From the NCBI RefSeq assembly GCF_058153355.1, contig NZ_CM177019.1: a stretch of 64,000 nucleotides of DNA. One strand, 5' to 3'. Below are positions 34,839 to 56,779 of the stretch, piece after piece; position 1 is the first letter of the stretch, and every line of letters begins with the position of its first letter. A model generated the notes under the pieces. That model saw nothing but the letters and a program-made list of their open reading frames with translations. It searched no databases and was not told the DNA's origin. Position numbers and translations under genes: made by a program.

Positions 34839-34848
34839 GGAGAACAAG

Positions 34849-35085: not shown

Positions 35086-35126
35086 TAAAAAAGGGCCGGG
35101 TAGAGGCTTTGCTTTACCCGGCCACG

Positions 35127-36669: not shown

Positions 36670-36768
36670 GAATTAATTGTTGAGTCCTGATTTTAATTAT
36701 ACTCCATCTGTTATTGAGCCAATAATAATTAATAATCCCCGATGGGAAGGCCATCGGGAATTATGCCA

Positions 36769-39330: not shown

Positions 39331-39576
39331 GGGGTTATGTCCGGTTCCCTGATATTAAATGGGGTGTGATGGTTTTTATTTTCGTTGTAATCACATAAGG
39401 CGCACATGATACCGGAGTTAATCATTTCAGGGGAAGAAGCGAACGGCGAGTTCTTGATGGTGATTCCGGGAAAGATGCTGTTTTGCAGCTTTTGCGTGAT
39501 GCTTATGAAGCAAGTACGCAAAATTGTATCAGTTGGCGACCCCTTCTTCTTCAGAGCCATAGTCCCCTTTCAAATT

Positions 39577-39599
39577 AAGTTGTAATATAAATACATCTT
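39577..39599. promoter_or_regulatory. candidate NsrR operator upstream of ygbA
   Basis: aagttgtaatataaatacatctta resembles the NsrR inverted-repeat consensus; ygbA is a recalled NsrR regulon member. Confidence 0.45.
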
Positions 39600-39616
39600 A
39601 ATGAGGTGGAGGCAGC

Positions 39617-39970
39617 ATGTCCGGCAAGCGTATCTCTCGTGAAAAACTGACGATTAAAAAAATGATCGATCTTTATCAAGCGAAATGCCCGCAGGCGTCA
39701 GCGGAGCCGGCGCATTACGAGGCATTGTTTGCTTATGCGCAAAAACGGCTGGATAAATGTGTGTTCGGCGAAGACAAACCCGCCTGTAAGCAGTGTCCGG
39801 TGCACTGTTACCAGTCTGCAAAGCGTGAAGAGATGAAACAGATTATGCGTTGGGCCGGGCCGCGCATGCTGTGGCGTCATCCGATCCTAACCGTACGCCA
39901 TCTCATTGATGACAAGCGTCCGGTGCCGGAGTTGCCAGAAAAATATCGCCCGAAAAAACCTCGTGAATAG
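39617..39970 (+). CDS. ygbA: nitrous-oxide-stimulated-promoter family protein YgbA
   Basis: 117 aa Cys-rich ORF. Confidence 0.85.
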   Translation: MSGKRISREKLTIKKMIDLYQAKCPQASAEPAHYEALFAYAQKRLDKCVFGEDKPACKQCPVHCYQSAKREEMKQIMRWAGPRMLWRHPILTVRHLIDDKRPVPELPEKYRPKKPRE

Positions 39971-39974
39971 TATA

Positions 39975-39996
39975 CCGGACAGGCAGATCTGTCCGG
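39975..39996. terminator. hairpin between the convergent ygbA and fhlA genes (possible bidirectional terminator)
   Basis: ccggacag-gcagat-ctgtccgg, 8-bp stem; no strong T-tract. Confidence 0.35.
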
Positions 39997-40008
39997 TACC
40001 TCATGCAG

Positions 40009-42084
40009 TTAAACCAATGCCGATTTATCAATCCCCAGTCGTTTCATCCGTGATAGCAGTGTGGTGCGTTTTAGTCCCAGACGTTGCGCCGCGCCTTTCG
40101 GCCCGGCAACCACGCCGTTAGTCTCTTTTAATACACGCACAATTAGCTGATATTCATCTTCGCCCTCCTGAGCGACGACCGTTGCAGTCGGCGGCGTTTT
40201 AGGTTCCGGTAAAGCAATATCAGGCAATGACAGCTGCAGCACGTTGCCACGTGTCAGCAATACCGCGCGCTCAATGACGTTTTCCAGCTCGCGTACGTTA
40301 CCTGGCCACTCCATATTGCTCAACGCGCGCAACGTTTCGGCAGGAATGCTGTCGATATTACGCCCCAGACGGCGGGCAATTTTAAAAGTAAAGGATTTTG
40401 CCAGCAGCGGAATATCTTCCGGACGCTCGCGTAGTGGCGGCAGGTGGATCGGGAATACGTTCAGGCGGTAATAGAGATCGCTACGGAACTCGCGGTCGGC
40501 AACCATTTTTTTCAGATCGCGGTTAGTCGCGGCAATTAAACGCACGTCCGTCTGTATAATTTTATTACTGCCGAGACGTTCAAACTCCTGTTCCTGTAAT
40601 ACACGCAGCAACTTCGGTTGTAACTCCAGCGGCATATCACCCACTTCATCGAGGAACAGGGAGCTTTTATCCGCCAGTTCAAAACGACCGATACGCTGGG
40701 CGCTGGCTCCGGTAAACGCACCACGCTCATGGCCAAACAGATCGCTTTCCAACAATCCGGCAGGCATCGCCGCGCAGTTCATTTTTACCATGCGGCGATT
40801 ATTACGCCCACTGAGATTATGGATCGCGCGGGCAATCAGCTCTTTACCAGTGCCAGTTTCACCGAGGATCAGAACTGTACTGTCACTTTGTGCCACCATT
40901 TCAACTTGTTTAAGCACGCTGTACATGGCTTCACTGCGACCAATAATCTCGCCAAATTCACTATCAACATTGTTGAGCTGCTCGGTCAGGGCGAGATTTT
41001 CATCAACCAGTCGTTCTTTCAGACGATGAATTTCCTGATAGGCAAGGGCGTTATCGACAGCGATTGCCACACGTTCAGCAATCTGGCGCAGTAAATTCAG
41101 ATTGGTCGTGGTAAACACTTTCTCTTCGCATTGCGCCAGTTTCAGCACGCCCAGCATGGTGTCGCCAGACATCAGCGGTAATAGGCACAAGGTTTGAATC
41201 TGGTTGCCCCAGGTGTCGAACAACATGCGTTCGTAAGGGGCTAAATTATCTCGCTCGTGGAGATTAATCAGCAGCATCTCTTTGCTTTTAAACACGCGTT
41301 CGGTGAGGGTTCCTGCTTCATCGACTTCGCTCTGTTCGTGAGCGGGATGCTGTTTATCAAGATAGTGAGTGGAGTAGATGTTGAGTTTGTTTTTACGGTG
41401 GCTGCGTAAGACGATGCTGATATCGTCAATGTCGAAATAGTAATGGATTTCTTTGGCGACTTCGCTGACCAGTTCGTCCATATCCAGGCGAGAAAGCACC
41501 GCGTTGGTGATGGCAACCAGGATGCGGAAGTTATCGCGTTCCCGGCATAACAACTCATAGTCGACATTATTGACGACGCGGCTCTGGATTTGTTCGGTGA
41601 CGACAGAAATGATCTGCGTAAAAGTTTGCAGGCGATTGAACTCTTTTTCACTCCACGGGCGATCGTCATAACGAATAAATTCACAGCCACCAAAAATATG
41701 CCCTTCCGCCGCCAGTGGCATCAGGCAATAGTGACCAAATTTGGGGTATAGCCCACCAGCGGCCAGCTGCGGCCAGGTTTCACAAAATTCTTCGTAACTG
41801 CAATGCAGTGTATCAGGGCGCGACAAAATGCTGCGCACCGGACCGTGTGCCAGAACAGTTTCGTCTTCATAATTTATGGGGGTGTCTTTTTCACGCGACG
41901 CGTAATAAGACGCACGTTGAGTCTGCGCTTGCCACAACACAATAGCTGCATTGTCGGCGAGCGCAGAACGCTTTACCAATTGCGAAAGAGCCTCACACAG
42001 CGAGGCCAGATCGGGCTGCTGCAATAGTGTCCGAGTGATGTCGAACAACCCTTGTTGTCCGAGATCACTCATCGGTGTATATGA
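40009..42084 (-). CDS. fhlA: formate hydrogenlyase transcriptional activator FhlA (sigma-54-dependent)
   Basis: 692 aa from MSYTPMSDLGQ; AAA+ sigma-54 activator motifs (GETGTGKE, GAFTGA) and C-terminal HTH. Confidence 0.95.
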   Translation of the reverse strand, partial: SYTPMSDLGQQGLFDITRTLLQQPDLASLCEALSQLVKRSALADNAAIVLWQAQTQRASYYASREKDTPINYEDETVLAHGPVRSILSRPDTLHCSYEEFCETWPQLAAGGLYPKFGHYCLMPLAAEGHIFGGCEFIRYDDRPWSEKEFNRLQTFTQIISVVTEQIQSRVVNNVDYELLCRERDNFRILVAITNAVLSRLDMDELVSEVAKEIHYYFDIDDISIVLRSHRKNKLNIYSTHYLDKQHPAHEQSEVDEAGTLTERVFKSKEMLLINLHERDNLAPYERMLFDTWGNQIQTLCLLPLMSGDTMLGVLKLAQCEEKVFTTTNLNLLRQIAERVAIAVDNALAYQEIHRLKERLVDENLALTEQLNNVDSEFGEIIGRSEAMYSVLKQVEMVAQSDSTVLILGETGTGKELIARAIHNLSGRNNRRMVKMNCAAMPAGLLESDLFGHERGAFTGASAQRIGRFELADKSSLFLDEVGDMPLELQPKLLRVLQEQEFERLGSNKIIQTDVRLIAATNRDLKKMVADREFRSDLYYRLNVFPIHLPPLRERPEDIPLLAKSFTFKIARRLGRNIDSIPAETLRALSNMEWPGNVRELENVIERAVLLTRGNVLQLSLPDIALPEPKTPPTATVVAQEGEDEYQLIVRVLKETNGVVAGPKGAAQRLGLKRTTLLSRMKRLGIDKSALV

Positions 42085-42160
42085 CATTTTGTTCTTCCAG
42101 GAAAGCACCGCAAAGCGGTGCAAAAGGTCATTGACTAACTATAGGAGATTTAGAATTTTA

Positions 42161-43171
42161 TTAGCATATACGCGGAAGCGGTTCGGCGTGTGGTAAATCG
42201 AGGGTTCGTTTCACGCCATACAGACCGGCAAGACGAACACCTTTACGTTCCACCACTTCACCAATCAGCGCCGCGTCTTTCCCCAGTGGATGGGAATGTA
42301 ACGCCGCCAGCACTTGCTCTGCTGCGTTGCGTTCAACGGCGATCACCAGTTTGCCTTCGTTGGCAAAGTTAAGGGCGTCCAGCCCCAGCAGTTCGCAAAC
42401 GCCGCGCACGGCAGGTTTAACCGGCAGTGCCGCTTCTGAAATTTCAATACCACAACCGCAGGCTGCCGCGAACTCATGAACTACCGCGTTCACTCCACCA
42501 CGGGTGGCGTCACGCAGTGCCTTCACACCGGGAATATCACGCAGCGTCTGGATGAGCGGCGTCAGCACTGCGCAGTCGCTGACCAGTTCGCCATCCAGCC
42601 CCAGTTGCTCGCGCAGATTAAGAATAGTTGCTCCGTGGTCGCCGAGAGTTCCACTCACCAGCAGAACATCGCCTGCGGTTAGCGTCTGTGCGCCCCAGTG
42701 AATATTCGCCGGGATCGCGCCCATGCCAGCGGTGTTGATAAACAGTTTATCTGCCGCGCCGCGTTGCACCACTTTAGTGTCGCCTGTAACGATGGCAATG
42801 CCTGCCGCGCGGGCGGTTTCTGCCATGCTGGTCACCACGGCTTTTAGCGTCTCCATCGGCAATCCCTCTTCGAGGATAAAGCCACAAGAGAGATAGCGCG
42901 GAATAGCGCCACTGACCGCAACGTCATTCGCGGTGCCACAAATCGCCAGCTTGCCAATATTGCCACCAGGAAAGAACAGCGGGTCGATGACGTAGCTGTC
43001 GGTGGAGAACGCCAGACGGTCGCCTTCTGCCACCAGCTGCGCCAGCTCAAGGCGCGCCTGGTCTTCCTGTTCTGCCAGCCACGGATTGGCAAAAGCTTCC
43101 ATAAACAGGCTGTTGATTAATTGCTGCATCGCCTGGCCGCCGCTGCCGTGGGCGAGTTGGATATTATTCAC
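42161..43171 (-). CDS. hypE: hydrogenase maturation protein HypE
   Basis: 336 aa ORF. Confidence 0.9.
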   Translation of the reverse strand: MNNIQLAHGSGGQAMQQLINSLFMEAFANPWLAEQEDQARLELAQLVAEGDRLAFSTDSYVIDPLFFPGGNIGKLAICGTANDVAVSGAIPRYLSCGFILEEGLPMETLKAVVTSMAETARAAGIAIVTGDTKVVQRGAADKLFINTAGMGAIPANIHWGAQTLTAGDVLLVSGTLGDHGATILNLREQLGLDGELVSDCAVLTPLIQTLRDIPGVKALRDATRGGVNAVVHEFAAACGCGIEISEAALPVKPAVRGVCELLGLDALNFANEGKLVIAVERNAAEQVLAALHSHPLGKDAALIGEVVERKGVRLAGLYGVKRTLDLPHAEPLPRIC

Positions 43172-44289
43172 GCTTCACTCTCCTGCTGACGATACTGATA
43201 CCACGCGGCGCATGCTCCCTCGGAGGAAACCATCAGCGCGCCAAACGCGGTTTGAGGATTACAGGTGTTACCAAACAGCGGGCATTGATGCGGCTTACAT
43301 TTGCCCGTCAATACTTCGCCACAACGTGCGCGCGGGTCATCGCAAACCTGCTGCGGTGCCGGGCGGAAATGCGCTTCGGCGTCAAATCGTTGATAGTCTG
43401 GCGTCAGGTGTACACCAGAAGATTCAATCACGCCTAAGCCGCGCCATTCGCTGTCGCCGTTGACACAGAACACATCCGCAATCGCCTGTTGCGCCAGCAG
43501 GTTACCGGCATCTGGCACCACCCGCCGATACTGATTTTCTACCTTGCTGTGGGCCGCTATTTTCTGCTCCACCAGCATGACCACGCCTTGTAGTAGATCA
43601 AGCGGTTCGAATCCAGCAACCACCAGAGGACGATGAAAATCACTGGCGATAAAATTATAGGCGTCGGTGCCGATAACCATACTGACGTGGCCCGGCGCGA
43701 GGAACGCATCGATACCGTTATCCGGCTGTTCCAGCAAACTGCGTAGCGTTGGGATCAGCGTAATATGCTGGCAGAAAAAGTAAAAATTTTGCACATCGCG
43801 GGCTTTCGCCTGTTGCAGAGTGATGGCCGTCGTCGGCATGGTGGTTTCAAACCCTAAGCCGAAGAACACCACTTTACGAGTTGGATTCTCCTGCGCCAGT
43901 TTCAACGCATCCATTGGCGAGTAAACGATGCGAACATCGGCACCGCGCGCTTTTGCCTGTAACAGCGACCCTTGTTTCCCTGGTACGCGCATGGCGTCGC
44001 CAAAGGTACAGAAGATGACTTCCGGATGGCTGGCAATCTCCACGCAAGTGTCGATTCTTCCCATCGGCAGTACACATACCGGGCAACCCGGACCGTGGAT
44101 AAACTCGACGTTTTCCGGCAGCAACTGGTCGAGGCCGAATTTAAAAATGGCGTGGGTATGACCGCCGCACACTTCCATAATCCGCAGAGGGCGTTCGGCG
44201 GTGTAAGAGAGATGTGAAGCACGTTCGCGTAGATGCTCAATTAACTGCATCACCTGTTCCGGCGCGCGATATTCATCAACAAAACGCAT
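43168..44289 (-). CDS. hypD: hydrogenase maturation protein HypD
   Basis: 373 aa ORF; CGxH and CPVC motifs. Confidence 0.9.
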   Translation of the reverse strand: MRFVDEYRAPEQVMQLIEHLRERASHLSYTAERPLRIMEVCGGHTHAIFKFGLDQLLPENVEFIHGPGCPVCVLPMGRIDTCVEIASHPEVIFCTFGDAMRVPGKQGSLLQAKARGADVRIVYSPMDALKLAQENPTRKVVFFGLGFETTMPTTAITLQQAKARDVQNFYFFCQHITLIPTLRSLLEQPDNGIDAFLAPGHVSMVIGTDAYNFIASDFHRPLVVAGFEPLDLLQGVVMLVEQKIAAHSKVENQYRRVVPDAGNLLAQQAIADVFCVNGDSEWRGLGVIESSGVHLTPDYQRFDAEAHFRPAPQQVCDDPRARCGEVLTGKCKPHQCPLFGNTCNPQTAFGALMVSSEGACAAWYQYRQQESEA

Positions 44290-44561
44290 TATTTTTCCTC
44301 GCCATACAACAGCGCGCCGACATCCGGCTCAACGTCAAACATGTTTTGTAAGGCGTCGAGGGTGTCGCGCGCTTCGGCTTCATTAATTACGCTCATGGCA
44401 AAGCCAACGTGAACCAGTACCCACTGGCCCACGCGTGGCTGACCGTTTTCATCGCAGCTGCCGACTAACGTTAGGTCGACGTCGCGCTGAATACCGCAGA
44501 CGTCGACTTTCGCCTGGTTGCCGTCAATGGTGCGGATCTGGCCGGGAACGCCTATGCACAT
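44289..44561 (-). CDS. hypC: hydrogenase maturation chaperone HypC
   Basis: 90 aa from MCIGVPGQI. Confidence 0.9.
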
Positions 44562-45424
44562 CGCTGTGTCTCCAGCCAGTTCAGCCACTGGTCCATCCCT
44601 TCGCCGCTGGTGGCGGAAATAAGGATGATTTCAATTTCTGGATTGACTTCGCGGGCGCAGGCGATGCACTTCTCAACGTCGAAATTGAGATACGGTAGCA
44701 GGTCAACTTTGTTGAGCAGCATCAGTGAGGCGGCGGCAAACATATGTGGATATTTCAGCGGTTTGTCTTCACCTTCGGTAACGGAAAGCACCGCCACTTT
44801 GTGTTTTTCACCGAGATCGAAGCTCGCCGGACATACGAGGTTGCCAACGTTTTCGATAAACAGAATACCGTTATCGTCCAGTGGCAGGCGCGGCGCGGCG
44901 TCGGCGATCATCTGTGCGTCAAGATGGCAACCTTTACCGGTATTCACCTGAATCGCTGGCGTGCCGGTAGCGCGAATGCGCGCGGCATCGTTCACGGTTT
45001 GCTGGTCGCCTTCAATCACCGCACACGGAACGCTATCTTTCAGGCGCATTAAGGTTTCAGTCAGCAGCGTGGTTTTACCGGAACCAGGGCTGGAAACCAG
45101 GTTGAGTACCAACTGATTGCGGGCAGCAAAGCGCGCTCGGTTGCGTTCAGCCAGACGGTTGTTTTTGTCCAGCACGTCAATTTCGACTTCCAGCATCCGA
45201 CGCTGGCTCATGCCCGGCGCGTGAGTGCCCGCTTCGCCATGACCGTAATGCAGGTCGCCTTCTTCAGTCTGGCTGGGGGTAAATTCAGGCGCTTTAATGC
45301 CGGTGATTTTCATCTTCGGGCGTGCCGCCGGGGCAAATGGCGCGCTACGAAACGCGGAATGAGGGTTATGTTCATCACCCTCGATATACAGGTTGCCTTC
45401 ACCGCAACCGCATGTTGTACACAT
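44552..45424 (-). CDS. hypB: hydrogenase nickel-incorporation GTPase HypB
   Basis: 290 aa ORF; His-rich N-terminus and [10 protein letters not shown]-loop. Confidence 0.9.
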
Positions 45425-45427
45425 CGC

Positions 45428-45778
45428 TCACTCCTGGTCTATTTCTATCCGCCGAATCTGTAAACCGTCGTCTGCCACAATTTGTAGCATGTCGCCATGA
45501 CACTGTGGACAGCGTCGGACGCGCTGGGTTAATAGCGTCACATATTGTTGGCATGTTTCGCACCAGCATTCGGCCTCTTGTTCTTCGAGGTGCAGTTTAC
45601 AACCTTCCGCTACGCTGCCGCGGCAAACCAGATCAAAACAAAAGGCAAGAGAGCTGGTTTCGACACAAGAAAATGCGCCAATTTTGAGCCAGACCCCAGT
45701 TACGCGTTTTGCACCGTGTTTTGCGGCCTGCTGTTCGATCAATTCCAGTGCCCGTTGGCAGAGGGTTATTTCGTGCAT
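45428..45778 (-). CDS. hypA: hydrogenase nickel-insertion protein HypA
   Basis: 116 aa from MHEITLCQRALELIE; CxxC...CPxC zinc motif. Confidence 0.9.
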   Translation of the reverse strand: MHEITLCQRALELIEQQAAKHGAKRVTGVWLKIGAFSCVETSSLAFCFDLVCRGSVAEGCKLHLEEQEAECWCETCQQYVTLLTQRVRRCPQCHGDMLQIVADDGLQIRRIEIDQE

Positions 45779-45809
45779 ATCGCCTCCCATTAACTATTGC
45801 CAGCTACAA

Positions 45810-45824
45810 GCAATAATTGTGCCA
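45810..45824 (-). promoter_or_regulatory. candidate sigma-54 promoter for hypA
   Basis: Minus-strand TGGCAC-aattat-TGC, about 30 bp upstream of hypA. Confidence 0.45.
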
Positions 45825-45850
45825 GTGTTGATTATCCCTAAAGTGAATAA

Positions 45851-45890
45851 TGTCGATGATGTCGAAATGACACGTCGACACGGCGACGAA
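45851..45890. promoter_or_regulatory. FhlA upstream activating sequence (UAS) in the hypA/hycA divergent region
   Basis: Repeated tgtcgaaatgaca-type motifs, also seen at 46501-46558. Confidence 0.45.
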
Positions 45891-45937
45891 ATTCACCAGA
45901 ATCCTAAAAATCTCTTTTATAACAATAAATTAAAAGT

Positions 45938-45953
45938 TGGCACAAAAAATGCT
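45938..45953 (+). promoter_or_regulatory. candidate sigma-54 promoter for the hyc operon
   Basis: TGGCAC-aaaaaa-TGCT with GG/GC spacing matching the -24/-12 consensus, about 40 bp upstream of hycA. Confidence 0.5.
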
Positions 45954-45989
45954 TAAAGCTGGCATCTCTGTTAAACGGGTAACCTGACA

Positions 45990-46451
45990 ATGACTATTTG
46001 GGAAATAAGCGAGAAAGCCGATTACATCGCACAGCGGCATCGTCGCCTACAGGACCAGTGGCATCTCTACTGCAATTCGCTGGTTCAGGGGATCACGTTA
46101 TCGAAAGCGCGCCTGCATCACGCCATGAGCTGTGCGCCAGACAAAGAACTCTGTTTCGTCCTTTTTGAACATTTTCGCATTTACGTCACCCTGGCGGATG
46201 GCTTTAACAGCCACACCATCGAGTATTACGTCGAAACGAAAGAGGGTGAAGAAAAACAGCGGATTGCGCAGGCACAATTGAGCATTGACGGAATGATAGA
46301 TGGCAAGGTCAACATCCGCGATCGCGAACAGGTACTGGAACACTATCTCGAAAAAATCGCTGGCGTTTACGACAGCTTATACACCGCCATTGAAAACAAT
46401 GTACCGGTGAATTTAAGCCAACTGGTAAAGGGACAAAGCCCGGCGGCATGA
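45990..46451 (+). CDS. hycA: formate hydrogenlyase regulatory protein HycA
   Basis: 153 aa ORF. Confidence 0.9.
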   Translation: MTIWEISEKADYIAQRHRRLQDQWHLYCNSLVQGITLSKARLHHAMSCAPDKELCFVLFEHFRIYVTLADGFNSHTIEYYVETKEGEEKQRIAQAQLSIDGMIDGKVNIRDREQVLEHYLEKIAGVYDSLYTAIENNVPVNLSQLVKGQSPAA

Positions 46452-46500
46452 GCTGAGGCTTTGCCCGTTTTGCAGGCGTTACGCCTGTTTGGGGATGGGC

Positions 46501-46558
46501 GTGTCGATGAGTGTCGAAAATGACATTTCATCGGCATGTTTTCGTCAAAAATGACAAT
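46501..46558. promoter_or_regulatory. second FhlA UAS-like motif cluster in the hycA-hycB intergenic region
   Basis: gtgtcgaaaatgaca and tcgtcaaaaatgaca repeats resembling those at 45851-45890. Confidence 0.4.
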
Positions 46559-46575
46559 CACCTGAGGAATGCCTG

Positions 46576-47098
46576 GTGAATCGTTTTGTAATTGCTGACT
46601 CCACGCTCTGTATCGGCTGCCACACCTGTGAGGCCGCCTGTTCAGAGACGCATCGCCAGCACGGCCTGCAATCAATGCCGCGCCTGCGAGTGATGCTAAA
46701 TGAAAAAGAATCTGCGCCGCAGCTCTGTCACCACTGTGAAGATGCACCCTGTGCGGTGGTCTGCCCGGTTAACGCTATCACCCGCGTTGATGGGGCAGTG
46801 CAGCTGAATGAAAGCCTGTGCGTAAGCTGCAAACTGTGCGGCACCGCCTGCTCCGGCGCGTGTCAGCACGTTGCTTGACTGGGTGCCGGGTATACGCGCG
46901 ATCGCCGTCAAATGTGACCTCTGTAGCTTTGATGAACAAGGTCCAGCCTGCGTGCGGATGTGCCCAACCAAAGCCCTGCATCTGGTGGATAACACCGATA
47001 TCGCCCGCGTCAGCAAGCGTAAGCGTGAGCTGACCTTTAACACGGACTTTGGCGATCTCACCTTGTTTCAGCAGGCTCAAAGTGGAGAGGCTAAATGA
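46576..47098 (+). pseudogene. hycB: hycB (formate hydrogenlyase 4Fe-4S subunit) disrupted by a frameshift, consistent with an internal deletion of about 89 bp
   Basis: N-terminal 100 aa frame (two complete Cx2Cx2Cx3CP clusters and the start of a third) stops at 46878; the C-terminal 75 aa (LLDWVPGIRAIAVKCDLCSFDEQGPACVRMCP...) continues in another frame; combined span 523 bp versus about 612 bp expected. Confidence 0.6.
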
Positions 47099-48921
47099 GC
47101 GCAATTTCCCTGATCAATAGCGGCGTGGCGTGGTTTGTTGCTGCCGCTGTTCTGGCATTTCTCTTTTCTTTTCAAAAGGCGTTAAGCGGCTGGATTGCCG
47201 GAATTGGCGGCGCGGTGGGTAGCCTGTATACGGCAGCCGCAGGCTTCACTGTGCTGACTGGCGCGGTTGGCGTGAGCGGCGCGTTGTCGCTGGTAAGCTA
47301 CAATGTGCAAATCTCTCCGCTTAATGCGATTTGGCTGATAACCCTCGGCCTGTGCGGTCTGTTTGTCAGCCTTTACAACATTGACTGGCATCGCCATGCG
47401 CAGGTGAAATGCAACGGTTTGCAAATCAATATGTTGATGGCTGCTGCCGTCTGTGCCGTCATTGCCAGCAATCTGGGCATGTTCGTAGTAATGGCAGAAA
47501 TCATGGCCCTGTGTGCGGTGTTCCTCACCAGCAACAGCAAAGAGGGCAAACTGTGGTTTGCGCTGGGGCGTCTTGGCACTTTGCTGCTGGCGATTGCTTG
47601 CTGGCTGCTGTGGCAACGTTACGGCACGCTGGATCTGCGCCTGCTGGATATGCGCATGCAACAGCTGCCGCTTGGTTCCGATATCTGGCTGCTCGGTGTG
47701 ATTGGTTTTGGCCTGCTGGCCGGGATTATCCCGCTGCACGGCTGGGTGCCACAGGCTCATGCTAACGCCTCTGCGCCAGCTGCCGCGCTGTTTTCCACGG
47801 TGGTGATGAAAATTGGCCTGCTGGGTATTTTAACCCTGTCTCTGCTGGGCGGTAATGCGCCGCTGTGGTGGGGAATTGCACTTCTGGTACTCGGCATGAT
47901 CACCGCGTTCGTCGGCGGTCTGTATGCGCTGATGGAGCACAACATTCAGCGTCTGCTGGCTTACCACACTCTGGAAAATATCGGCATCATCCTGCTGGGG
48001 CTGGGCGCTGGCGTAACGGGTATCGCGCTTGAACAACCGGCGCTGATTGCCCTTGGTCTGGTCGGTGGTCTGTACCATCTGCTTAACCATAGCCTGTTCA
48101 AGAGCGTACTGTTCCTCGGGGCTGGGAGCGTCTGGTTCCGTACCGGTCATCGCGATATTGAAAAACTCGGCGGTATTGGCAAAAAAATGCCGGTTATCTC
48201 CATCGCCATGTTGGTCGGTCTGATGGCAATGGCTGCGCTGCCACCGCTGAACGGTTTTGCCGGGGAATGGGTTATCTATCAATCCTTCTTCAAACTGAGC
48301 AATAGTGGCGCGTTTGTTGCTCGTCTTCTCGGGCCGCTGCTCGCCGTGGGGCTGGCAATTACCGGTGCGCTGGCAGTGATGTGTATGGCGAAAGTTTATG
48401 GCGTTACTTTCCTTGGCGCGCCGCGTACCAAAGAAGCCGAAAACGCCACCTGTGCGCCGCTCCTGATGAGCGTAAGCGTAGTGGCACTGGCGATTTGCTG
48501 CGTGATTGGCGGTGTTGCTGCGCCGTGGCTGCTGCCGATGTTGTCTGCTGCCGTACCTCTGCCGCTGGAGCCTGCTAATACAACCGTTTCTCAACCAATG
48601 ATCACGTTGCTGCTGATTGCCTGCCCACTTCTGCCATTCATCATTATGGCGATTTGCAAAGGCGACCGTCTGCCGTCGCGTTCCCGCGGCGCTGCCTGGG
48701 TATGTGGCTACGACCATGAAAAATCAATGGTGATTACCGCTCACGGTTTTGCCATGCCGGTGAAACAGGCATTTGCGCCAGTGCTGAAACTGCGCAAATG
48801 GCTGAATCCGGTGTCGCTGGTACCAGGCTGGCAGTGCGAGGGGAGTGCGTTGCTGTTTCGCCGGATGGCGCTGGTTGAACTGGCGGTGCTGGTGGTGATT
48901 ATTGTTTCACGAGGAGCCTGA
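47095..48921 (+). CDS. hycC: formate hydrogenlyase membrane subunit 3 (NuoL-like)
   Basis: 608 aa polytopic membrane ORF. Confidence 0.9.
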   Translation: MSAISLINSGVAWFVAAAVLAFLFSFQKALSGWIAGIGGAVGSLYTAAAGFTVLTGAVGVSGALSLVSYNVQISPLNAIWLITLGLCGLFVSLYNIDWHRHAQVKCNGLQINMLMAAAVCAVIASNLGMFVVMAEIMALCAVFLTSNSKEGKLWFALGRLGTLLLAIACWLLWQRYGTLDLRLLDMRMQQLPLGSDIWLLGVIGFGLLAGIIPLHGWVPQAHANASAPAAALFSTVVMKIGLLGILTLSLLGGNAPLWWGIALLVLGMITAFVGGLYALMEHNIQRLLAYHTLENIGIILLGLGAGVTGIALEQPALIALGLVGGLYHLLNHSLFKSVLFLGAGSVWFRTGHRDIEKLGGIGKKMPVISIAMLVGLMAMAALPPLNGFAGEWVIYQSFFKLSNSGAFVARLLGPLLAVGLAITGALAVMCMAKVYGVTFLGAPRTKEAENATCAPLLMSVSVVALAICCVIGGVAAPWLLPMLSAAVPLPLEPANTTVSQPMITLLLIACPLLPFIIMAICKGDRLPSRSRGAAWVCGYDHEKSMVITAHGFAMPVKQAFAPVLKLRKWLNPVSLVPGWQCEGSALLFRRMALVELAVLVVIIVSRGA

Positions 48922-48923
48922 GA

Positions 48924-49847
48924 ATGAGTGTTTTATATCCGTTAATTCAGGCGCTGGTGTTATTTGCCGTTGCGCCGCTGCTCTCCGGTATTACCCGCGT
49001 GGCGCGCGCCCGCTTGCATAACCGTCGCGGGCCGGGCGTGTTGCAGGAGTATCGCGACATTATCAAACTGCTGGGTCGTCAGAGCGTTGGTCCCGATGCC
49101 TCCGGCTGGGTGTTCCGCCTGACACCGTACGTAATGGTTGGCGTCATGTTGACTATCGCTACCGCGCTGCCGGTAGTGACTGTCGGTTCTCCGCTGCCGC
49201 AACTGGGGGATTTGATCACTTTACTGTATCTCTTCGCCATTGCGCGTTTCTTCTTTGCCATTTCTGGTCTGGATACCGGTAGTCCGTTTACTGCTATTGG
49301 CGCGAGCCGTGAAGCGATGCTGGGCGTGCTGGTTGAACCGATGCTGCTGCTTGGTCTGTGGGTCGCCGCGCAGGTGGCCGGTTCCACCAACATCAGCAAC
49401 ATCACCGACACCGTTTATCACTGGCCGCTGAGCCAGAGCATTCCGCTGGTGCTGGCGCTCTGTGCCTGCGCATTCGCCACCTTTATCGAAATGGGCAAAC
49501 TGCCGTTCGACCTGGCGGAAGCCGAGCAGGAGCTGCAGGAAGGTCCGCTCTCTGAGTACAGCGGCAGCGGCTTTGGCGTCATGAAATGGGGTATCAGCCT
49601 GAAACAGCTGGTGGTGTTACAGATGTTCGTCGGGGTGTTTATTCCGTGGGGACAAATGGAAACCTTCACTGCCGGTGGGCTGCTGCTGGCGCTGGTGATT
49701 GCCATCGTCAAACTGGTGGTCGGCGTACTGGTTATCGCGCTGTTCGAAAACAGCATGGCCCGTCTGCGTCTTGATATTACACCACGCATTACCTGGGCTG
49801 GTTTTGGCTTTGCATTTTTAGCGTTCGTCTCCTTGCTGGCGGCGTGA
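48924..49847 (+). CDS. hycD: formate hydrogenlyase membrane subunit 4 (NuoH-like)
   Basis: 307 aa membrane ORF. Confidence 0.9.
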   Translation: MSVLYPLIQALVLFAVAPLLSGITRVARARLHNRRGPGVLQEYRDIIKLLGRQSVGPDASGWVFRLTPYVMVGVMLTIATALPVVTVGSPLPQLGDLITLLYLFAIARFFFAISGLDTGSPFTAIGASREAMLGVLVEPMLLLGLWVAAQVAGSTNISNITDTVYHWPLSQSIPLVLALCACAFATFIEMGKLPFDLAEAEQELQEGPLSEYSGSGFGVMKWGISLKQLVVLQMFVGVFIPWGQMETFTAGGLLLALVIAIVKLVVGVLVIALFENSMARLRLDITPRITWAGFGFAFLAFVSLLAA

Positions 49848-49864
49848 TTAAAGAGAGTTTGAGC

Positions 49865-51574
49865 ATGTCTGAAGAAAAATTAGGTCAACATTATCTCGCC
49901 GCGCTGAATGAGGCATTTCCGGGCGTCGTGCTGGACCACGCCTGGCAGACCAAAGATCAGCTGACTGTCACCGTGAAGGTGAACTATCTGCCGGAAGTGG
50001 TGGAGTTCCTCTACTACAAGCAGGGGGGCTGGCTGTCGGTGCTGTTTGGTAACGACGAACGCAAACTGAATGGTCATTACGCCGTTTATTACGTGCTGTC
50101 GATGGAGAAGGGCACCAAGTGTTGGATTACGGTTCGCGTCGAAGTTGACGCCAACAAACCAGAATATCCGTCCGTGACGCCGCGCGTTCCGGCGGCGGTG
50201 TGGGGCGAGCGTGAAGTGCGCGATATGTACGGTTTGATTCCGGTAGGGCTTCCGGATGAACGCCGTCTGGTGCTGCCGGATGACTGGCCGGATGAACTCT
50301 ACCCTCTGCGTAAAGACAGCATGGATTATCGTCAACGTCCGGCACCAACTACTGATGCTGAAACCTACGAGTTCATCAACGAACTGGGCGATAAGAAAAA
50401 CAATGTCGTGCCGATTGGTCCGCTGCACGTCACTTCTGACGAACCGGGCCACTTCCGTCTGTTCGTTGATGGCGAAAACATTATCGACGCCGACTACTGC
50501 CTGTTCTATGTCCATCGCGGCATGGAAAAACTGGCGGAAACCCGCATGGGTTACAACGAAGTGACCTTCCTCTCTGACCGAGTTTGTGGGATCTGCGGCT
50601 TTGCCCACAGCACCGCTTACACCACATCGGTGGAAAACGCGATGGGTATTCAGGTGCCAGAACGTGCGCAGATGATCCGCGCCATTTTGCTGGAAGTGGA
50701 ACGCCTGCACTCGCATCTGCTCAACCTTGGCCTTGCCTGCCACTTTACTGGCTTTGACTCCGGTTTTATGCAGTTCTTCCGCGTGCGTGAAACCTCCATG
50801 AAAATGGCGGAGATCCTTACCGGTGCGCGTAAAACCTACGGCCTGAACCTGATCGGCGGGATTCGTCGCGATCTGCTGAAAGACGACATGATCCAGACCC
50901 GTCAACTGGCGCAACAAATGCGTCGTGAAGTACAGGAGCTGGTGGATGTGCTGCTGAGTACGCCAAACATGGAACAGCGCACTGTCGGCATTGGTCGTCT
51001 GGACCCGGAAATTGCCCGCGACTTCAGTAACGTCGGCCCGATGGTCCGCGCCAGTGGTCACGCCCGCGATACCCGCGCCGATCACCCGTTTGTTGGCTAT
51101 GGCTTACTGCCAATGGAAGTTCACAGTGAGCAGGGCTGCGATGTGATTTCCCGTCTGAAAGTGCGTATCAACGAAGTCTATACCGCGCTGAACATGATTG
51201 ACTACGGTCTGGATAACCTGCCGGGCGGCCCGCTGATGGTGGAAGGCTTTACCTACATTCCGCACCGTTTTGCGCTGGGCTTTGCCGAAGCGCCGCGTGG
51301 CGATGATATCCACTGGAGTATGACCGGCGACAACCAGAAGCTGTACCGCTGGCGCTGCCGTGCCGCGACCTACGCGAACTGGCCGACCCTGCGCTACATG
51401 CTGCGCGGCAACACCGTTTCTGATGCGCCGCTGATTATTGGTAGCCTGGACCCTTGCTACTCCTGTACCGACCGCATGACCGTGGTCGATGTGCGTAAGA
51501 AGAAGAGCAAAGTGGTGCCGTACAAAGAACTTGAGCGCTACAGCATTGAGCGTAAAAACTCGCCGCTGAAATAA
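49865..51574 (+). CDS. hycE: hydrogenase 3 large subunit
   Basis: 569 aa from MSEEKLGQHYL; N- and C-terminal Cys motifs; ORF-track start 49844 is an upstream extension. Confidence 0.9.
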   Translation: MSEEKLGQHYLAALNEAFPGVVLDHAWQTKDQLTVTVKVNYLPEVVEFLYYKQGGWLSVLFGNDERKLNGHYAVYYVLSMEKGTKCWITVRVEVDANKPEYPSVTPRVPAAVWGEREVRDMYGLIPVGLPDERRLVLPDDWPDELYPLRKDSMDYRQRPAPTTDAETYEFINELGDKKNNVVPIGPLHVTSDEPGHFRLFVDGENIIDADYCLFYVHRGMEKLAETRMGYNEVTFLSDRVCGICGFAHSTAYTTSVENAMGIQVPERAQMIRAILLEVERLHSHLLNLGLACHFTGFDSGFMQFFRVRETSMKMAEILTGARKTYGLNLIGGIRRDLLKDDMIQTRQLAQQMRREVQELVDVLLSTPNMEQRTVGIGRLDPEIARDFSNVGPMVRASGHARDTRADHPFVGYGLLPMEVHSEQGCDVISRLKVRINEVYTALNMIDYGLDNLPGGPLMVEGFTYIPHRFALGFAEAPRGDDIHWSMTGDNQKLYRWRCRAATYANWPTLRYMLRGNTVSDAPLIIGSLDPCYSCTDRMTVVDVRKKKSKVVPYKELERYSIERKNSPLK

Positions 51575-51583
51575 GGAATCGCC

Positions 51584-52126
51584 ATGTTTACCTTTATCAA
51601 AAAAGTCATCAAAACCGGCACGGCGACCTCGTCTTACCTGCTGGAGCCGATTGCGGTTGATAAAAACTTCCGTGGTAAGCCAGAGCAGAACCCGCAGCAG
51701 TGCATCGGCTGTGCAGCCTGCGTCAATGCCTGCCCGTCAAACGCCTTAACGGTTGAAACTGACCTCGCCACCGGTGAGCTGGCGTGGGAGTTCAATCTTG
51801 GACGCTGCATCTTCTGTGGACGCTGCGAAGAAGTCTGCCCGACGGCGGCGATCAAACTGTCGCAAGAGTACGAACTGGCGGTGTGGAAGAAAGAAGATTT
51901 CCTGCAACAGTCTCGCTTCGCGCTGTGCAACTGCCGCATCTGTAATCGTCCTTTCGCCGTCCAGAAAGAGATCGACTACGCCATTGCGCTGCTTAAGCAC
52001 AATGGTGACAGCCGTGCGGAAAACCACCGCGAAAGCTTTGAGACTTGCCCGGAATGTAAGCGCCAGAAATGCCTGGTGCCGTCCGACCGTATTGAACTGA
52101 CTCGCCATATGAAAGAGGCCATCTGA
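51584..52126 (+). CDS. hycF: formate hydrogenlyase iron-sulfur subunit
   Basis: 180 aa ORF with 4Fe-4S motifs. Confidence 0.9.
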
Positions 52127-52893
52127 TGAGCAATTTATTAGGCCCCCGTGACGCCAACGGCATTCCGGTCCCGATGACGGTGGATGAATCCATCGCCAGT
52201 ATGAAGGCGTCGTTACTGAAAAAAATCAAACGTTCTGCCTACGTTTACCGCGTGGACTGCGGCGGCTGCAACGGCTGCGAAATTGAAATTTTCGCAACCT
52301 TATCGCCGCTGTTCGATGCAGAACGCTTCGGCATTAAAGTCGTTCCGTCTCCGCGTCATGCGGATATTTTACTGTTTACCGGCGCGGTCACCCGTGCAAT
52401 GCGATCCCCTGCGCTGCGTGCGTGGCAGTCCGCGCCGGACCCGAAAATCTGTATCTCCTACGGTGCCTGCGGTAACAGCGGCGGGATCTTCCACGATCTC
52501 TACTGCGTGTGGGGGGGGACGGATAAAATCGTCCCGGTGGATGTCTACATTCCGGGGTGCCCGCCAACGCCAGCCGCCACGCTGTACGGCTTTGCAATGG
52601 CGCTCGGCCTGCTGGAGCAGAAAATTCACGCCCGTGGGCCGGGTGAACTGGATGAACAACCGGCAGAGATCCTGCATGGCGATATGGTGCAGCCGCTGCG
52701 TGTAAAAGTAGATCGCGAAGCACGCCGCCTGGCGGGTTATCGTTACGGTCGCCAGATTGCCGATGATTTCCTGACGCAGTTAGGGCAGGGTGAAGAGCAG
52801 GTTGCACGCTGGCTGGAAGCGGAAAACGATCCGCGTCTGAACGAGATTGTCAGCCATCTGAATCATGTTGTTGAAGAGGCGCGTATTCGATGA
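52126..52893 (+). CDS. hycG: hydrogenase 3 small subunit
   Basis: 255 aa ORF. Confidence 0.9.
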
Positions 52894-53300
52894 GTGAAAA
52901 GGTGGTGTTCAGTCAACTGAGCCGTAAATTTATTGATGAGAACGATGCTACGCCCGCCGAGGCGCAGCAGGTGGTCTATTACAGCCTGGCGATTGGTCAC
53001 CACCTTGGGGTTATCGATTGCCTGGAAGCCGCGCTCACCTGCCCGTGGGATGAATATCTGGCATGGATTGCCACTCTGGAGGCGGGCAGCGAAGCCCGCC
53101 GCAAAATGGAAGGCGTGCCAAAATATGGTGAGATCGTTATCGACATTAACCATGTGCCGATGCTGGCCAACGCATTCGATAAAGCCCGGGCAGCGCAAAC
53201 TTCGCAGCAGAAGGAATGGAGTACCATGCTGTTAAGTATGCTGCATGATATTTATCAGGAAAATGCCATCTATTTGATGGTGAGGAGACTGCGTGACTGA
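52890..53300 (+). CDS. hycH: formate hydrogenlyase maturation protein HycH
   Basis: 136 aa ORF. Confidence 0.85.
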
Positions 53301-53763
53301 CGTTTTACTCTGTGTTGGCAATAGCATGATGGGCGATGATGGCGCAGGTCCGCTGCTGGCGGAAAAGTGCGCCGCCGCGCCGAAAGGTAACTGGGTGGTG
53401 ATTGACGGCGGAAGCGCACCGGAAAATGACATTGTCGCCATCCGCGAACTGCGCCCGACGCGACTGCTGATTGTCGACGCTACGGATATGGGGCTAAACC
53501 CCGGCGAGATCCGCATCATCGACCCGGATGACATCGCTGAGATGTTTATGATGACTACCCATAACATGCCGCTGAACTACCTTATCGACCAGTTAAAAGA
53601 AGACATTGGCGAAGTGATTTTCCTCGGCATCCAGCCGGATATCGTCGGTTTTTACTACCCGATGACCCAGCCGATTAAAGATGCGGTAGAAACCGTTTAT
53701 CAACGACTTGAAGGCTGGGAAGGGAATGGTGGATTTGCGCAGTTAGCGGTGGAAGAAGAGTAG
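53293..53763 (+). CDS. hycI: hydrogenase 3 maturation endopeptidase
   Basis: 156 aa ORF. Confidence 0.9.
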   Translation: MTDVLLCVGNSMMGDDGAGPLLAEKCAAAPKGNWVVIDGGSAPENDIVAIRELRPTRLLIVDATDMGLNPGEIRIIDPDDIAEMFMMTTHNMPLNYLIDQLKEDIGEVIFLGIQPDIVGFYYPMTQPIKDAVETVYQRLEGWEGNGGFAQLAVEEE

Positions 53764-53805
53764 TTTTTCAGTAAGGAATTCAGGGAATTGAAAATCAGAA
53801 CAGGG

Positions 53806-54156
53806 ATGTGCGCTTTTTTATTTTGCTTAGTGCTTCCTACGCAGGCTACCAGCTTTACCGAATATCTGCCAATGAGTGACAGCGAATACGCGCAAAAGCG
53901 GGCGCTGAAACCTCTCCTGACTATGCCTTATTATACCGAGCAAACCTGGCATTTTAGAAAAGTGGGCGTTGCTGGCGTGACGCTTGAGAAGATGCCAAAT
54001 GAAGAGGATTACTGGCAATTAACTGCTAAAGACCGCGCCGGTAAATCCTGGAAGGTGCCTGTGGGTATGCTGGCAAATATGGCGGGCAAAGGGCAACTCT
54101 ATCGCGCCGATCTGGATCGTAACGGCATTCAGGATCTGGTTACCAAGTGCTGGTAA
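53806..54156 (+). CDS. hypothetical secreted protein (islet ORF 1)
   Basis: ORF 53788-54156 with signal-peptide-like N-terminus MCAFLFCLVLPTQA from ATG 53806; no recognised domain. Confidence 0.4.
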   Translation: MCAFLFCLVLPTQATSFTEYLPMSDSEYAQKRALKPLLTMPYYTEQTWHFRKVGVAGVTLEKMPNEEDYWQLTAKDRAGKSWKVPVGMLANMAGKGQLYRADLDRNGIQDLVTKCW

Positions 54157-54187
54157 TGGTCTGGCTCCTTATGCACATTTAATCCTT

Positions 54188-54553
54188 ATGACGTTCACGC
54201 GCGATGGTCGTCCCTGTGTCTTTGAACCCTGGGGATTCTACACCGCAAGCAAAACTGGCGTAGATGATTTGCTGGATTTGCAAGGCAATGGCCACACACA
54301 ATTGCTGGATATGCAGTTTAATTCTGGTTACTGGATAACCAGTCTGTATCAGGTAAAAGACGCCAAATGGCAACGTGTTCACGGCTGGTTTGGCAAGTTA
54401 AGCTATCCCGCGCTCACGCGTTTTACTTATACCCCCAACCGTAAACTCGTCCTCAAACCCATTGCCGGGCGTGACCCGCAAACGGAAGATTTAGCGCTGA
54501 CGCAGCGTTGTTTGATAACAGGGGATGTGCTTGATGGGGTGAATCAGAACTGA
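54188..54553 (+). CDS. hypothetical protein (islet ORF 2); possibly the C-terminal part of a frameshifted gene with ORF 1
   Basis: 121 aa ORF; its frame is open upstream to 54023, overlapping ORF 1 in another frame. Confidence 0.35.
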   Translation: MTFTRDGRPCVFEPWGFYTASKTGVDDLLDLQGNGHTQLLDMQFNSGYWITSLYQVKDAKWQRVHGWFGKLSYPALTRFTYTPNRKLVLKPIAGRDPQTEDLALTQRCLITGDVLDGVNQN

Positions 54554-54715
54554 CTTTTTGCAGAGTGGGTATGAGGATTTTGGGGGAGAATTATATCGCG
54601 CGCAAGTGTTTACATATTGTGAACTTGGATTTGGTGAGCTATAGTTTCTGAACACATAAGGATAGAACTCGCAGATGTGGCTGTTTACTTACTATAAGGA
54701 AGTTAAAACTTAAAA

Positions 54716-55027
54716 ATGCACATCATTTCGAAAGCGCCATTTGAAGAGTCTGCGCGCAAATATCCTAACGACGCTCTGGCTCTACACTCATTGTATCGGG
54801 TTATTAAGGAAACGGATTTTTCTACGCCAGAAGAAATGCGAACGGCGTTTCCCAACCTCGACAATTTTAAATATCGCAACAAATGGTACGTTCTGGATGT
54901 CGGCGGGAACAATCTTAGGGTTATTGCCTACATAAACTTTGTTAATAAGCGGTTCTTTGTGAAGCACATAACGAATCATGCCGAGTATGACAAACTGACA
55001 CGTTACTACAGAGAGAACAAAGAATGA
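54716..55027 (+). CDS. higB: HigB-family type II toxin (RelE/ParE superfamily)
   Basis: 103 aa; shares FPNLDNFKY and VGGNNLRV with my recollection of K-12 HigB. Confidence 0.8.
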   Translation: MHIISKAPFEESARKYPNDALALHSLYRVIKETDFSTPEEMRTAFPNLDNFKYRNKWYVLDVGGNNLRVIAYINFVNKRFFVKHITNHAEYDKLTRYYRENKE

Positions 55028-55443
55028 CTGCTAATGCTGCACGCGCTGTTAAAGCAACAAGAGAACTGGTCAATGCAGTCCCCTTTCTGGGAGGCAGTGA
55101 CTCAGAAGATGATTATCGTGAAGCACTGGAACTGGTCGAATATTTGATTGAAGAAGATGACACCAATCCACTTATCGACTTTCTGGCGAGCCGCATTGCA
55201 GAGTATGAAAACAACCACGAAAAGTTTGCAGAGTTCGACAAAGCCGTTGCTGCAATGCCGGTTGGCGTGGCGTTACTTCGCACGTTGATTGATCAACATA
55301 ATCTGACCTATGCGGATTTGAAGAACGAAATCGGCTCTAAATCCCTGGTCAGTCAGATTTTGTCTGGACAAAGATCCCTGACGATATCCCACATTAAGGC
55401 ACTTTCAGCCCGATTTGGCGTTAAGCCGGAATGGTTTCTTTGA
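55024..55443 (+). CDS. higA: HigA-family antitoxin (HTH, XRE family)
   Basis: 139 aa; start overlaps the higB stop (ATGA); recalled HigA-like motifs including IGSKSLVSQILSG. Confidence 0.8.
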   Translation: MTANAARAVKATRELVNAVPFLGGSDSEDDYREALELVEYLIEEDDTNPLIDFLASRIAEYENNHEKFAEFDKAVAAMPVGVALLRTLIDQHNLTYADLKNEIGSKSLVSQILSGQRSLTISHIKALSARFGVKPEWFL

Positions 55444-55488
55444 TTTTGACTGATGCCAAACGCCAGATTGCCCGATGCGCAACGCTTA

Positions 55489-56718
<1,230 letters not shown>

Positions 56719-56748
56719 CATGCCTGCAATCTGGGAAACCGGGGTAGA

Positions 56749-56779
<31 letters not shown>

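What the first reader, a model, noticed from the sequence alone, without database searches (positions are those of the whole stretch)
46576..47098. hycB split by a frameshift: an internal deletion of about 89 bp removing part of the third Fe-S cluster motif
The first frame encodes the N-terminal 100 aa and stops after CKLCGTACSGACQHVA; the remainder (LLDWVPGIRAIAVKCDLCSFDEQGPACVRMCPTKAL...) continues in another frame. The combined span is 523 bp against about 612 bp expected for a roughly 203 aa HycB. The junction near 46843-46850 reads ggcACCGCCTGCTCCGGCG, consistent with deletion between short GCCTGC direct repeats. HycB is the electron-transfer subunit of formate hydrogenlyase and is the second gene of the operon, so this could inactivate or be polar on the complex. 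It could also be an assembly artefact.
Basis: partly seen in the sequence, partly recalled or inferred. Interest (0 to 1): 0.6.

Follow-up and report, generated by a model that had tools for sequence, protein, structure and literature searches.

The report
hycB broken by 89-bp deletion
One strain of a divergent Escherichia lineage has lost 89 bases from hycB, an essential iron-sulfur subunit of the enzyme that turns formate into hydrogen gas, so it very probably cannot make fermentation gas; this is a real but ordinary strain-private loss-of-function mutation.

Summary
hycB is split into a 100-codon ORF (46576-46878) and a 75-codon ORF in the +1 frame (46871-47098). The cause is an exact 89-bp deletion of reference hycB nt 264-352.

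The deletion lies between two copies of an imperfect direct repeat (CGGCAYCGCCTGCYC, 13/15 identical, 5-nt perfect microhomology CGGCA) that sit exactly 89 nt apart in intact genes. The product keeps residues 1-89, adds 11 aberrant residues and stops. Residues 90-118 are lost, including Cys92-Pro93 and much of the loop that docks on HycF/HycE. The fourth cysteine motif is out of frame.

All 5,425 complete E. coli genomes that match carry the extra 89 bp. The junction is also absent from 100,044 species-representative genomes and from the JGI metagenomes. An independent read-based assembly (SRR31441161) is 100% identical over 18.9 kb including the junction, so an assembler artefact is unlikely.

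All other FHL genes in the window (fhlA, hypA-E, hycA, hycC-I, hydN) are intact, which suggests a recent event. Published ΔhycB strains make no FHL hydrogen. The host is closest to Escherichia cryptic clade I.

Verdict: a genuine, private, ordinary pseudogene of low novelty.

The parts
46576..46878 (+). hycB 5' fragment: GTG start, 89 native codons (Cys motifs I, II and the first three Cys of III), then 11 aberrant codons (TACSGACQHVA) and a TGA stop
46839..46853 (+). Deletion junction: the single retained repeat copy CGGCACCGCCTGCTC. The breakpoint is ambiguous within CGGCA (46839-46843). 89 bp (reference hycB nt 264-352, residues 90-118 plus 2 nt) are missing here
   Evidence: (the repeat pair lies 89 nt apart in the intact gene)
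46841..47098 (+). hycB 3' remnant in the +1 frame, encoding native residues 119-203 (Cys motif IV: C143, C146, C155, C159). The only ORF call is the 75-codon TTG ORF from 46871, which has no Shine-Dalgarno sequence upstream
46879..47094 (+). 216-nt stretch left untranslated in the hycB frame, between the premature stop and the hycC start. In intact genes the hycB stop overlaps the hycC start (ATGA at 47095-47098)
   Evidence: the polarity effect is inferred
47095..53763 (+). hycC, hycD, hycE, hycF, hycG, hycH and hycI, all full length
45990..46451 (+). hycA, intact (153 aa), first gene of the operon
40009..45778 (-). fhlA, hypE, hypD, hypC, hypB and hypA, all full length (divergent hyp-fhlA operon)

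Best explanation
A spontaneous, repeat-mediated 89-bp deletion (replication slippage or microhomology-mediated deletion) occurred inside hycB of a cryptic-clade-I-like Escherichia strain. It happened between two imperfect 15-nt direct repeats and left one repeat copy. Because 89 is not a multiple of 3, translation shifts frame after Gly89 and stops 11 codons later. The product has only 11 of the 16 native cysteine ligands of the four [4Fe-4S] clusters. It lacks Cys92-Pro93, the 29-residue segment of the loop that docks HycB on HycF/HycE, and the whole fourth motif. HycB is the only electron path from formate dehydrogenase H (FdhF) to hydrogenase 3 and is FdhF's docking subunit, so formate hydrogenlyase-1 should be inactive and the strain should not evolve H2 or gas from formate. 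Loss of the hycB/hycC stop-start overlap may also lower expression of hycC and the genes after it. The rest of the regulon is intact and the allele is private to one strain or clone, so the event is recent. Shown: the deletion, its repeats, its rarity and the intactness of the neighbouring genes. Inferred: the slippage mechanism, the null phenotype and the polarity.
For: There is an exact 89-bp gap and only 2 substitutions against intact hycB. In the intact gene the repeat pair CGGCATCGCCTGC/CGGCACCGCCTGC has a start-to-start spacing of exactly 89 nt. The junction has 5-nt microhomology within a 13/15 repeat, and only 0.016% of all possible 20-200-nt deletions in hycB match that. All 5,425 matching complete E. 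coli genomes carry the extra 89 bp, and none gives a one-piece match across the junction. The junction 28-mer is absent from the GTDB species representatives and the JGI metagenomes. The Logan assembly of SRR31441161 matches 18,938/18,938 nt including the junction. Residue mapping: 1-89 native, 90-118 deleted, Cys92/143/146/155/159 lost from the product. HycB holds clusters B1-B4 of the relay, docks FdhF, and its inter-motif loop contacts HycF and HycE (PMC9474812). ΔhycB abolishes FHL H2 production, leaves about 10% FDH-H activity and cuts total hydrogenase activity by more than 90%, and HydN cannot substitute (PMC6004506). fhlA, hypA-E, hycA, hycC-I and hydN are full length.
Against: No phenotype or read-level data are available. 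SRR31441161 is evidently the same strain or clone (its contig ends at the same IS insertion), so it is an independent assembly, not an independent isolate. I cannot tell whether the deletion arose in nature or in culture. I also cannot see whether a second H2-evolving system (hyf/FHL-2) exists elsewhere in the genome. The slippage mechanism is inferred from the repeat geometry only.
Confidence: 0.86

Rival explanations
1. Assembly or sequencing artefact: the genome really has an intact hycB, and the 89 bp were lost during assembly or polishing.
For: The flanking repeats could in principle mislead an aligner or polisher. No raw reads could be inspected. The only other occurrence (SRR31441161) is the same strain or clone.
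Against: A separate read-based assembly pipeline (Logan) reproduces the junction, with 0 mismatches in 18,938 nt. The perfect repeat is only 5-7 nt, far below any assembler k-mer size. The error-type lesions seen in noisy long-read assemblies at this locus (ECZU27/29) are 1-4-nt indels accompanied by fragmented neighbouring genes, whereas every neighbouring gene here is intact.
Confidence: 0.04
2. Residual function: a +1 ribosomal frameshift at the premature stop (GCU UGA C), or termination-reinitiation at the overlapping TTG (46871), yields a loop-deleted or two-piece HycB that still supports some FHL activity.
For: The +1 frame is open from 46826, so a shift anywhere in 46826-46878 would fuse the two parts. 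The TTG start overlaps the stop. The aberrant tail fortuitously places a Cys at position 92 (CGTAC vs CGIAC). Related HycB3 of T. kivui is shorter (184 aa).
Against: There is no slippery codon (tRNA-Ala on GCU cannot re-pair on CUU) and no Shine-Dalgarno sequence before the TTG. Any fusion still lacks about 29 residues of the loop reported to contact HycF/HycE (PMC9474812), and a two-piece protein would have to assemble clusters that share ligands between motifs I/IV and II/III. Nothing is known to suggest split HycB works.
Confidence: 0.04
3. A real deletion, but acquired during laboratory passage or storage, or present in only a subpopulation, rather than an allele circulating in nature.
For: The allele is private to one strain or clone among more than 5,400 genomes plus metagenomes. 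All other FHL genes are pristine, as expected for a very young mutation.
Against: Nothing distinguishes this from a recent natural mutation. Independent natural hycB lesions exist elsewhere: R125* in SRR14496716, a 1-nt deletion in the S. dysenteriae 1617-type allele on at least 20 contigs, and an interruption in S. sonnei.
Confidence: 0.12
4. Natural length variant: hycB in this lineage is normally short or bipartite.
For: None beyond the window itself.
Against: The closest relatives (cryptic clade I genomes EC42405, 2013C-4282 and others, 98.7-99.6% identical) and all other E. coli have the 612-bp gene. The deletion is out of frame.
Confidence: 0.005

Closest known systems
E. coli K-12 HycB (formate hydrogenlyase subunit 2; PDB 7Z0S/7Z0T chain B)
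   Same: Same gene by position (second gene of hycABCDEFGHI, divergent from hypABCDE-fhlA). The protein sequence is identical over residues 1-89 and 119-203.
   Different: Residues 90-118 are deleted and the frame is shifted. No single ORF carries all 16 Cys ligands, so it is a pseudogene rather than a functional member.
Engineered ΔhycB strains (Keio JW2694; Sauter et al. 1992 in-frame deletions, as cited in PMC6004506)
   Same: Loss of the HycB electron-transfer subunit, so the expected phenotype is the same: no FHL-dependent H2, about 10% FDH-H activity, Hyd-3 activity lost.
   Different: This lesion is spontaneous, out of frame, leaves a 100-aa N-terminal fragment, and may add polarity on hycC-I.
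Natural hycB lesions in Shigella and other Escherichia
   Same: Independent inactivation of the same gene: a 1-nt deletion at nt 117 (the allele named for S. dysenteriae 1617), an interruption at about nt 396 in S. sonnei assemblies, and R125* in SRR14496716. Shigella is classically anaerogenic (my own knowledge).
   Different: Different mutations, different lineages and no shared junction. Here the rest of the regulon within the window shows no decay.
RecA-independent deletions between short direct repeats (slipped-strand mispairing)
   Same: The deleted segment is bounded by direct repeats, the repeat spacing equals the deletion length, and one copy is retained.
   Different: The repeats are imperfect (13/15), with only 5 nt of perfect homology at the crossover. 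The mechanism was not tested.

Membership tests
HycB (FHL-1 Fe-S subunit) | Sequence identity to experimentally solved HycB | tested here: met
   Intact EC42405 HycB is identical to 7Z0S_B over 203/203 residues. The window's residues 1-89 and 119-203 are identical to it.
HycB (FHL-1 Fe-S subunit) | Operon position: between hycA and hycC, divergent from hypA-E/fhlA | tested here: met
HycB (FHL-1 Fe-S subunit) | One continuous ORF of about 203 codons | tested here: not met
   100-aa and 75-aa ORFs in different frames; 523 bp against 612 bp.
HycB (FHL-1 Fe-S subunit) | Sixteen Cys in four motifs ligating four [4Fe-4S] clusters (B1-B4) | tested here: not met
   The reference has Cys at 12, 15, 18, 22, 51, 54, 59, 63, 82, 85, 88, 92, 143, 146, 155 and 159. 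The N-terminal product retains 11. C92 is deleted, and C143-C159 are encoded only in the +1 frame. Cluster count is from PMC9474812.
HycB (FHL-1 Fe-S subunit) | Supports formate-dependent H2 evolution | not testable with these tools
   Needs a gas or H2 assay of the strain. ΔhycB is H2-negative in K-12 (PMC6004506).
HycB (FHL-1 Fe-S subunit) | Match to a dedicated curated family model | tested here: inconclusive
   NCBIfam has no HycB-specific model that even the intact protein passes. The best hits (AegA, HydN) are below their cut-offs for both intact and truncated forms.
Short-direct-repeat (slippage) deletion | Direct repeats bound the deleted segment in the intact allele, with spacing equal to the deletion length | tested here: met
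   Family D8, 12/13 identity, spacing 89. Extended to 13/15 by eye.
Short-direct-repeat (slippage) deletion | Exactly one repeat copy retained at the junction; flanking homology exceeds chance | tested here: met
   5-nt microhomology plus a 13/15 repeat is matched by only 0.016% of possible deletions.
Short-direct-repeat (slippage) deletion | Arises by replication slippage, independently of RecA | not testable with these tools
   Mechanistic inference only.
Programmed ribosomal frameshift gene | Slippery site allowing tRNA re-pairing, plus a stimulator, conserved in relatives | tested here: not met
   The stop context is GUU GCU UGA C, with no re-pairing possible and no SD-like stimulator. Relatives have an unshifted gene.

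The most novel reading that the evidence does not exclude
The deletion is not a neutral accident. It would be one instance of convergent, selected loss of formate hydrogenlyase specifically through hycB in host-associated Escherichia, in parallel with the independent hycB lesions seen in the S. dysenteriae-type and S. sonnei assemblies. That would mark an anaerogenic variant arising within cryptic clade I. Alternatively, the split gene retains partial function through a +1 shift or reinitiation at the overlapping stop/start.
Probability: 0.08. Interest if true: 0.35.

Novelty: already known. Interest (0 to 1): 0.15.

Why it matters
The practical value is in annotation and phenotype prediction. 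This strain should be called hycB-pseudogene and FHL-1-negative, and it is probably anaerogenic, meaning it produces no gas from glucose or formate. That trait can confuse biochemical identification of atypical Escherichia, and it matters if the strain is considered for H2 or formate work. It is also a clean natural example of a deletion between imperfect short repeats. It does not reveal new biology.

Tried and rejected
(1) I searched for the junction in 5,426 complete E. coli genomes, 100,044 GTDB species representatives and the JGI metagenomes. There were no hits, so I could not show the allele in an independent isolate or name the source genome.

(2) I looked up the exact 75-aa ORF. It occurs in four other contigs, but these are different lesions: 1-4-nt indels in noisy assemblies (ECZU27/29), the nonsense mutation R125*, and a contig-edge fragment. 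None has the 89-bp deletion.

(3) The NCBIfam scan has no HycB-specific model, so it was uninformative for membership.

(4) The promoter/terminator scan found nothing above shuffle expectation in the region. In particular there is no intrinsic terminator in the 216-nt gap. The Rfam scan found no RNA family in the hyc/IS region.

(5) Programmed frameshifting was considered and rejected: there is no slippery site, and relatives have an unshifted gene.

(6) An engineered knockout was considered and rejected. There is no scar or cassette, the deletion is out of frame, and its endpoints sit on natural microhomology.

(7) I did not run structure prediction or fold searches, because a solved structure with identical sequence exists (7Z0S).

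Full report
**Observation.**
The window holds two adjacent ORFs where hycB should be. One is 46576..46878 (GTG start, 100 aa, ending CKLCGTACSGACQHVA*). The other is 46871..47098 (TTG start, 75 aa, LLDWVPGIRAIAVKCDLCSFDEQGPACVRMCPTKAL...) in the +1 frame. hycC (47095..48921) follows directly. The total span is 523 bp.

**What the lesion is.**
- A megablast of window 46300-47400 against 5,426 complete RefSeq E. coli genomes matched 5,425 of them. In every listed case the match came in two pieces spanning 1,190 bp against the query's 1,101 bp, which is 89 bp more.
- A 71-nt query centred on the junction gave no one-piece match. No genome reached 99% identity, and all the best hits were two pieces spanning 160 bp.
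- Alignment with the intact hycB of strain EC42405 (612 bp, 203 aa) shows one gap of exactly 89 bp (reference nt 264-352) and only two substitutions elsewhere. That protein is identical to PDB 7Z0S chain B.
- In the intact gene the gap is bounded by CGGCATCGCCTGCCC and CGGCACCGCCTGCTC. The repeat finder reports this pair (family D8, 12/13 identity) with a start-to-start spacing of exactly 89 nt.
- The window keeps a single copy with both variable positions of the second-copy type. The crossover therefore lies in the perfectly shared CGGCA (window 46839-46843).
- Enumerating all 89,052 possible 20-200-nt deletions within hycB, only 0.67% have at least 5 nt of microhomology. Only 0.016% also have a 13/15 flanking repeat, and that small set includes the equivalent start positions of this very deletion.
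- This geometry is the signature of slipped-strand or microhomology-mediated deletion. That is an inference from the anatomy; the mechanism itself was not tested.

**Consequence for the protein.**
- Intact HycB has 16 cysteines in four motifs (12/15/18/22, 51/54/59/63, 82/85/88/92, 143/146/155/159).
- The window's product has native residues 1-89, then 11 aberrant residues and a stop.
- Residues 90-118 (IACPFGAIEFSGSRPLDIPANANTPKAPP) are deleted. Residues 119-203 are encoded only in the +1 frame.
- The product therefore lacks Cys92-Pro93 and the whole fourth motif.
- The FHL cryo-EM paper (PMC9474812) shows that HycB carries four [4Fe-4S] clusters (B1-B4) of the eight-cluster relay from FdhF to HycE. 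It also shows that HycB is the docking partner of FdhF.
- The same paper reports that a loop between two of HycB's cysteine motifs contacts HycF and HycE extensively. The only long inter-motif loop is residues 93-142, so I take this to be the loop partly deleted here.
- Pinske 2018 (PMC6004506) reports that ΔhycB abolishes FHL-dependent H2 production, leaves about 10% FDH-H activity and reduces total hydrogenase activity by more than 90%. The same paper cites earlier work that HydN cannot replace HycB.
- The expected phenotype is therefore an FHL-1 null (inferred).
- Normally the hycB stop overlaps the hycC start (ATGA at 47095-47098). Here translation ends 216 nt earlier, so translational coupling is lost. 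hycC does keep its own GGAGAGG Shine-Dalgarno sequence.
- No intrinsic terminator lies in the gap. Any polarity on hycC and the downstream genes is only inferred.

**Is it real?**
- The exact 100-aa product is recorded on one other contig, from the Logan assembly of SRA run SRR31441161.
- That contig matches window 36576-55513 at 18,938 of 18,938 nt, including the junction.
- It ends 17 nt inside the IS element inserted at 55497, which is the usual short-read break at a multi-copy repeat.
- It is therefore the same strain or clone, assembled independently from reads.
- Error-type lesions at this locus look different. The ECZU27/29 assemblies have 1-4-nt indels, and their neighbouring genes are fragmented as well.
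- Here all neighbouring genes are intact.
- I rate an artefact at about 4%. I could not inspect raw reads.

**Rarity and context.**
- The junction 28-mer is absent from the GTDB species-representative genomes and from the JGI metagenomes.
- Over 20 kb, the window is about 94.9% identical to mainstream E. coli. It is 98.7-98.9% identical to about a dozen genomes, including EC42405. 2013C-4282 is among the best junction-region hits. PMC10100065 lists both strains as cryptic clade I.
- The host is therefore closest to Escherichia cryptic clade I.
- Gene-by-gene comparison with EC42405 shows fhlA, hypA-E, hycA, hycC-I and hydN at full length; hypF runs off the end of the window.
- The lesion is thus recent and isolated, not part of operon decay.
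- Other, independent hycB lesions exist in public data. These are R125* in SRR14496716, a 1-nt deletion at nt 117 in the allele named for S. dysenteriae 1617 (at least 20 contigs), and S. sonnei contigs that all break at hycB nt ~396 against foreign sequence.
- Natural inactivation of hycB is therefore a known kind of event. From my own knowledge, Shigella is classically anaerogenic.

**Rivals.**
- A programmed or fortuitous +1 shift at GCU UGA C, or reinitiation at the overlapping TTG, could in principle join or co-express the two parts. The +1 frame is open from 46826.
- Against this, there is no slippery site or Shine-Dalgarno sequence, and any product would still lack the 29-residue segment. 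I rate this at about 4%.
- A natural short variant is refuted.
- Whether the deletion arose in nature or during culture cannot be decided from the sequence.

**Verdict.**
This is a genuine, strain-private, repeat-mediated frameshift deletion that makes hycB a pseudogene, and it very probably abolishes formate-dependent H2 production. It is ordinary biology in a very well-characterised system, so interest is low.

Noticed in passing
window 55497-56775 (transposase ORF 55689..56669): A 1,279-bp IS110-family element encodes a 326-aa RNA-guided transposase (NF033542, 253 bits). It sits between higA and ascB and is absent from EC42405. Its flanks (...ATCGGGCCT|TG... and ...ACAGTATCT|AC...) reconstitute the IS621 target ATCGGGCCTAC with a CT core, as described in PMC11208160. 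Rfam has no matching bridge-RNA family.
   Followed up: partly
window 19217-21065: The first 1,695 nt of cas3 run directly into a type I-E CRISPR repeat (20912-20940, exact). A second repeat with 3 mismatches lies at 20973-21001. About 8 kb present in EC42405 (the rest of cas3, casA to cas2 and most of the array) is missing, so this is a degraded CRISPR-Cas locus.
   Followed up: partly
window 53806-54553: An 8-nt indel relative to EC42405 frameshifts a 251-aa hypothetical gene just downstream of hycI (116 aa here). This is a second small-indel pseudogene within 7 kb of the hycB lesion (the Logan gene calls show two ORFs of 122 and 121 aa).
   Followed up: no
window 35098-35130 and 32818-35085: About 6 kb present in EC42405 (ygbN, ygbM, otnC, otnK, ltnD, ygbI) is absent here, while the hydroxyarylic acid decarboxylase BCD genes are present. 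From my own knowledge, this is the polymorphic mutS-rpoS region.
   Followed up: no
window 31151-32143: rpoS is intact here (330 codons), whereas the closest complete genome, EC42405, is annotated with an internal stop in rpoS.
   Followed up: no
window 18727-19021: A chromosomal hok/sok toxin-antitoxin locus: sok RNA (RF01794, 111.5 bits) at 18727-18884 and a 50-aa Hok ORF at 18869-19021. By coordinate arithmetic, the other end of the SRR31441161 contig (36,976 nt) falls near here, at about window 18540.
   Followed up: no
L005 (SRR14496716), L014 (GCA_012753195.1), L012/L013 (S. sonnei-type contigs): Independent natural hycB lesions occur elsewhere. These are the nonsense mutation R125* in a lineage about 95% identical, a 1-nt deletion at nt 117 (the allele named for S. 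dysenteriae 1617, on at least 20 contigs), and contigs that end at hycB nt ~396 against foreign sequence ...GGGGATCTCTCAG. From memory, that sequence resembles an IS4/IS10-type terminal repeat.
   Followed up: partly
L003 / L004 (BNFW01000001, BNFU01000001; E. coli ECZU29/ECZU27): In these public assemblies many genes of the hyp/hyc region are fragmented by 1-4-nt indels (hypB, hycB, hycC, hycD). This looks like uncorrected long-read error rather than biology, and it is why the 75-aa 'hypothetical protein' is in NCBI.
   Followed up: partly
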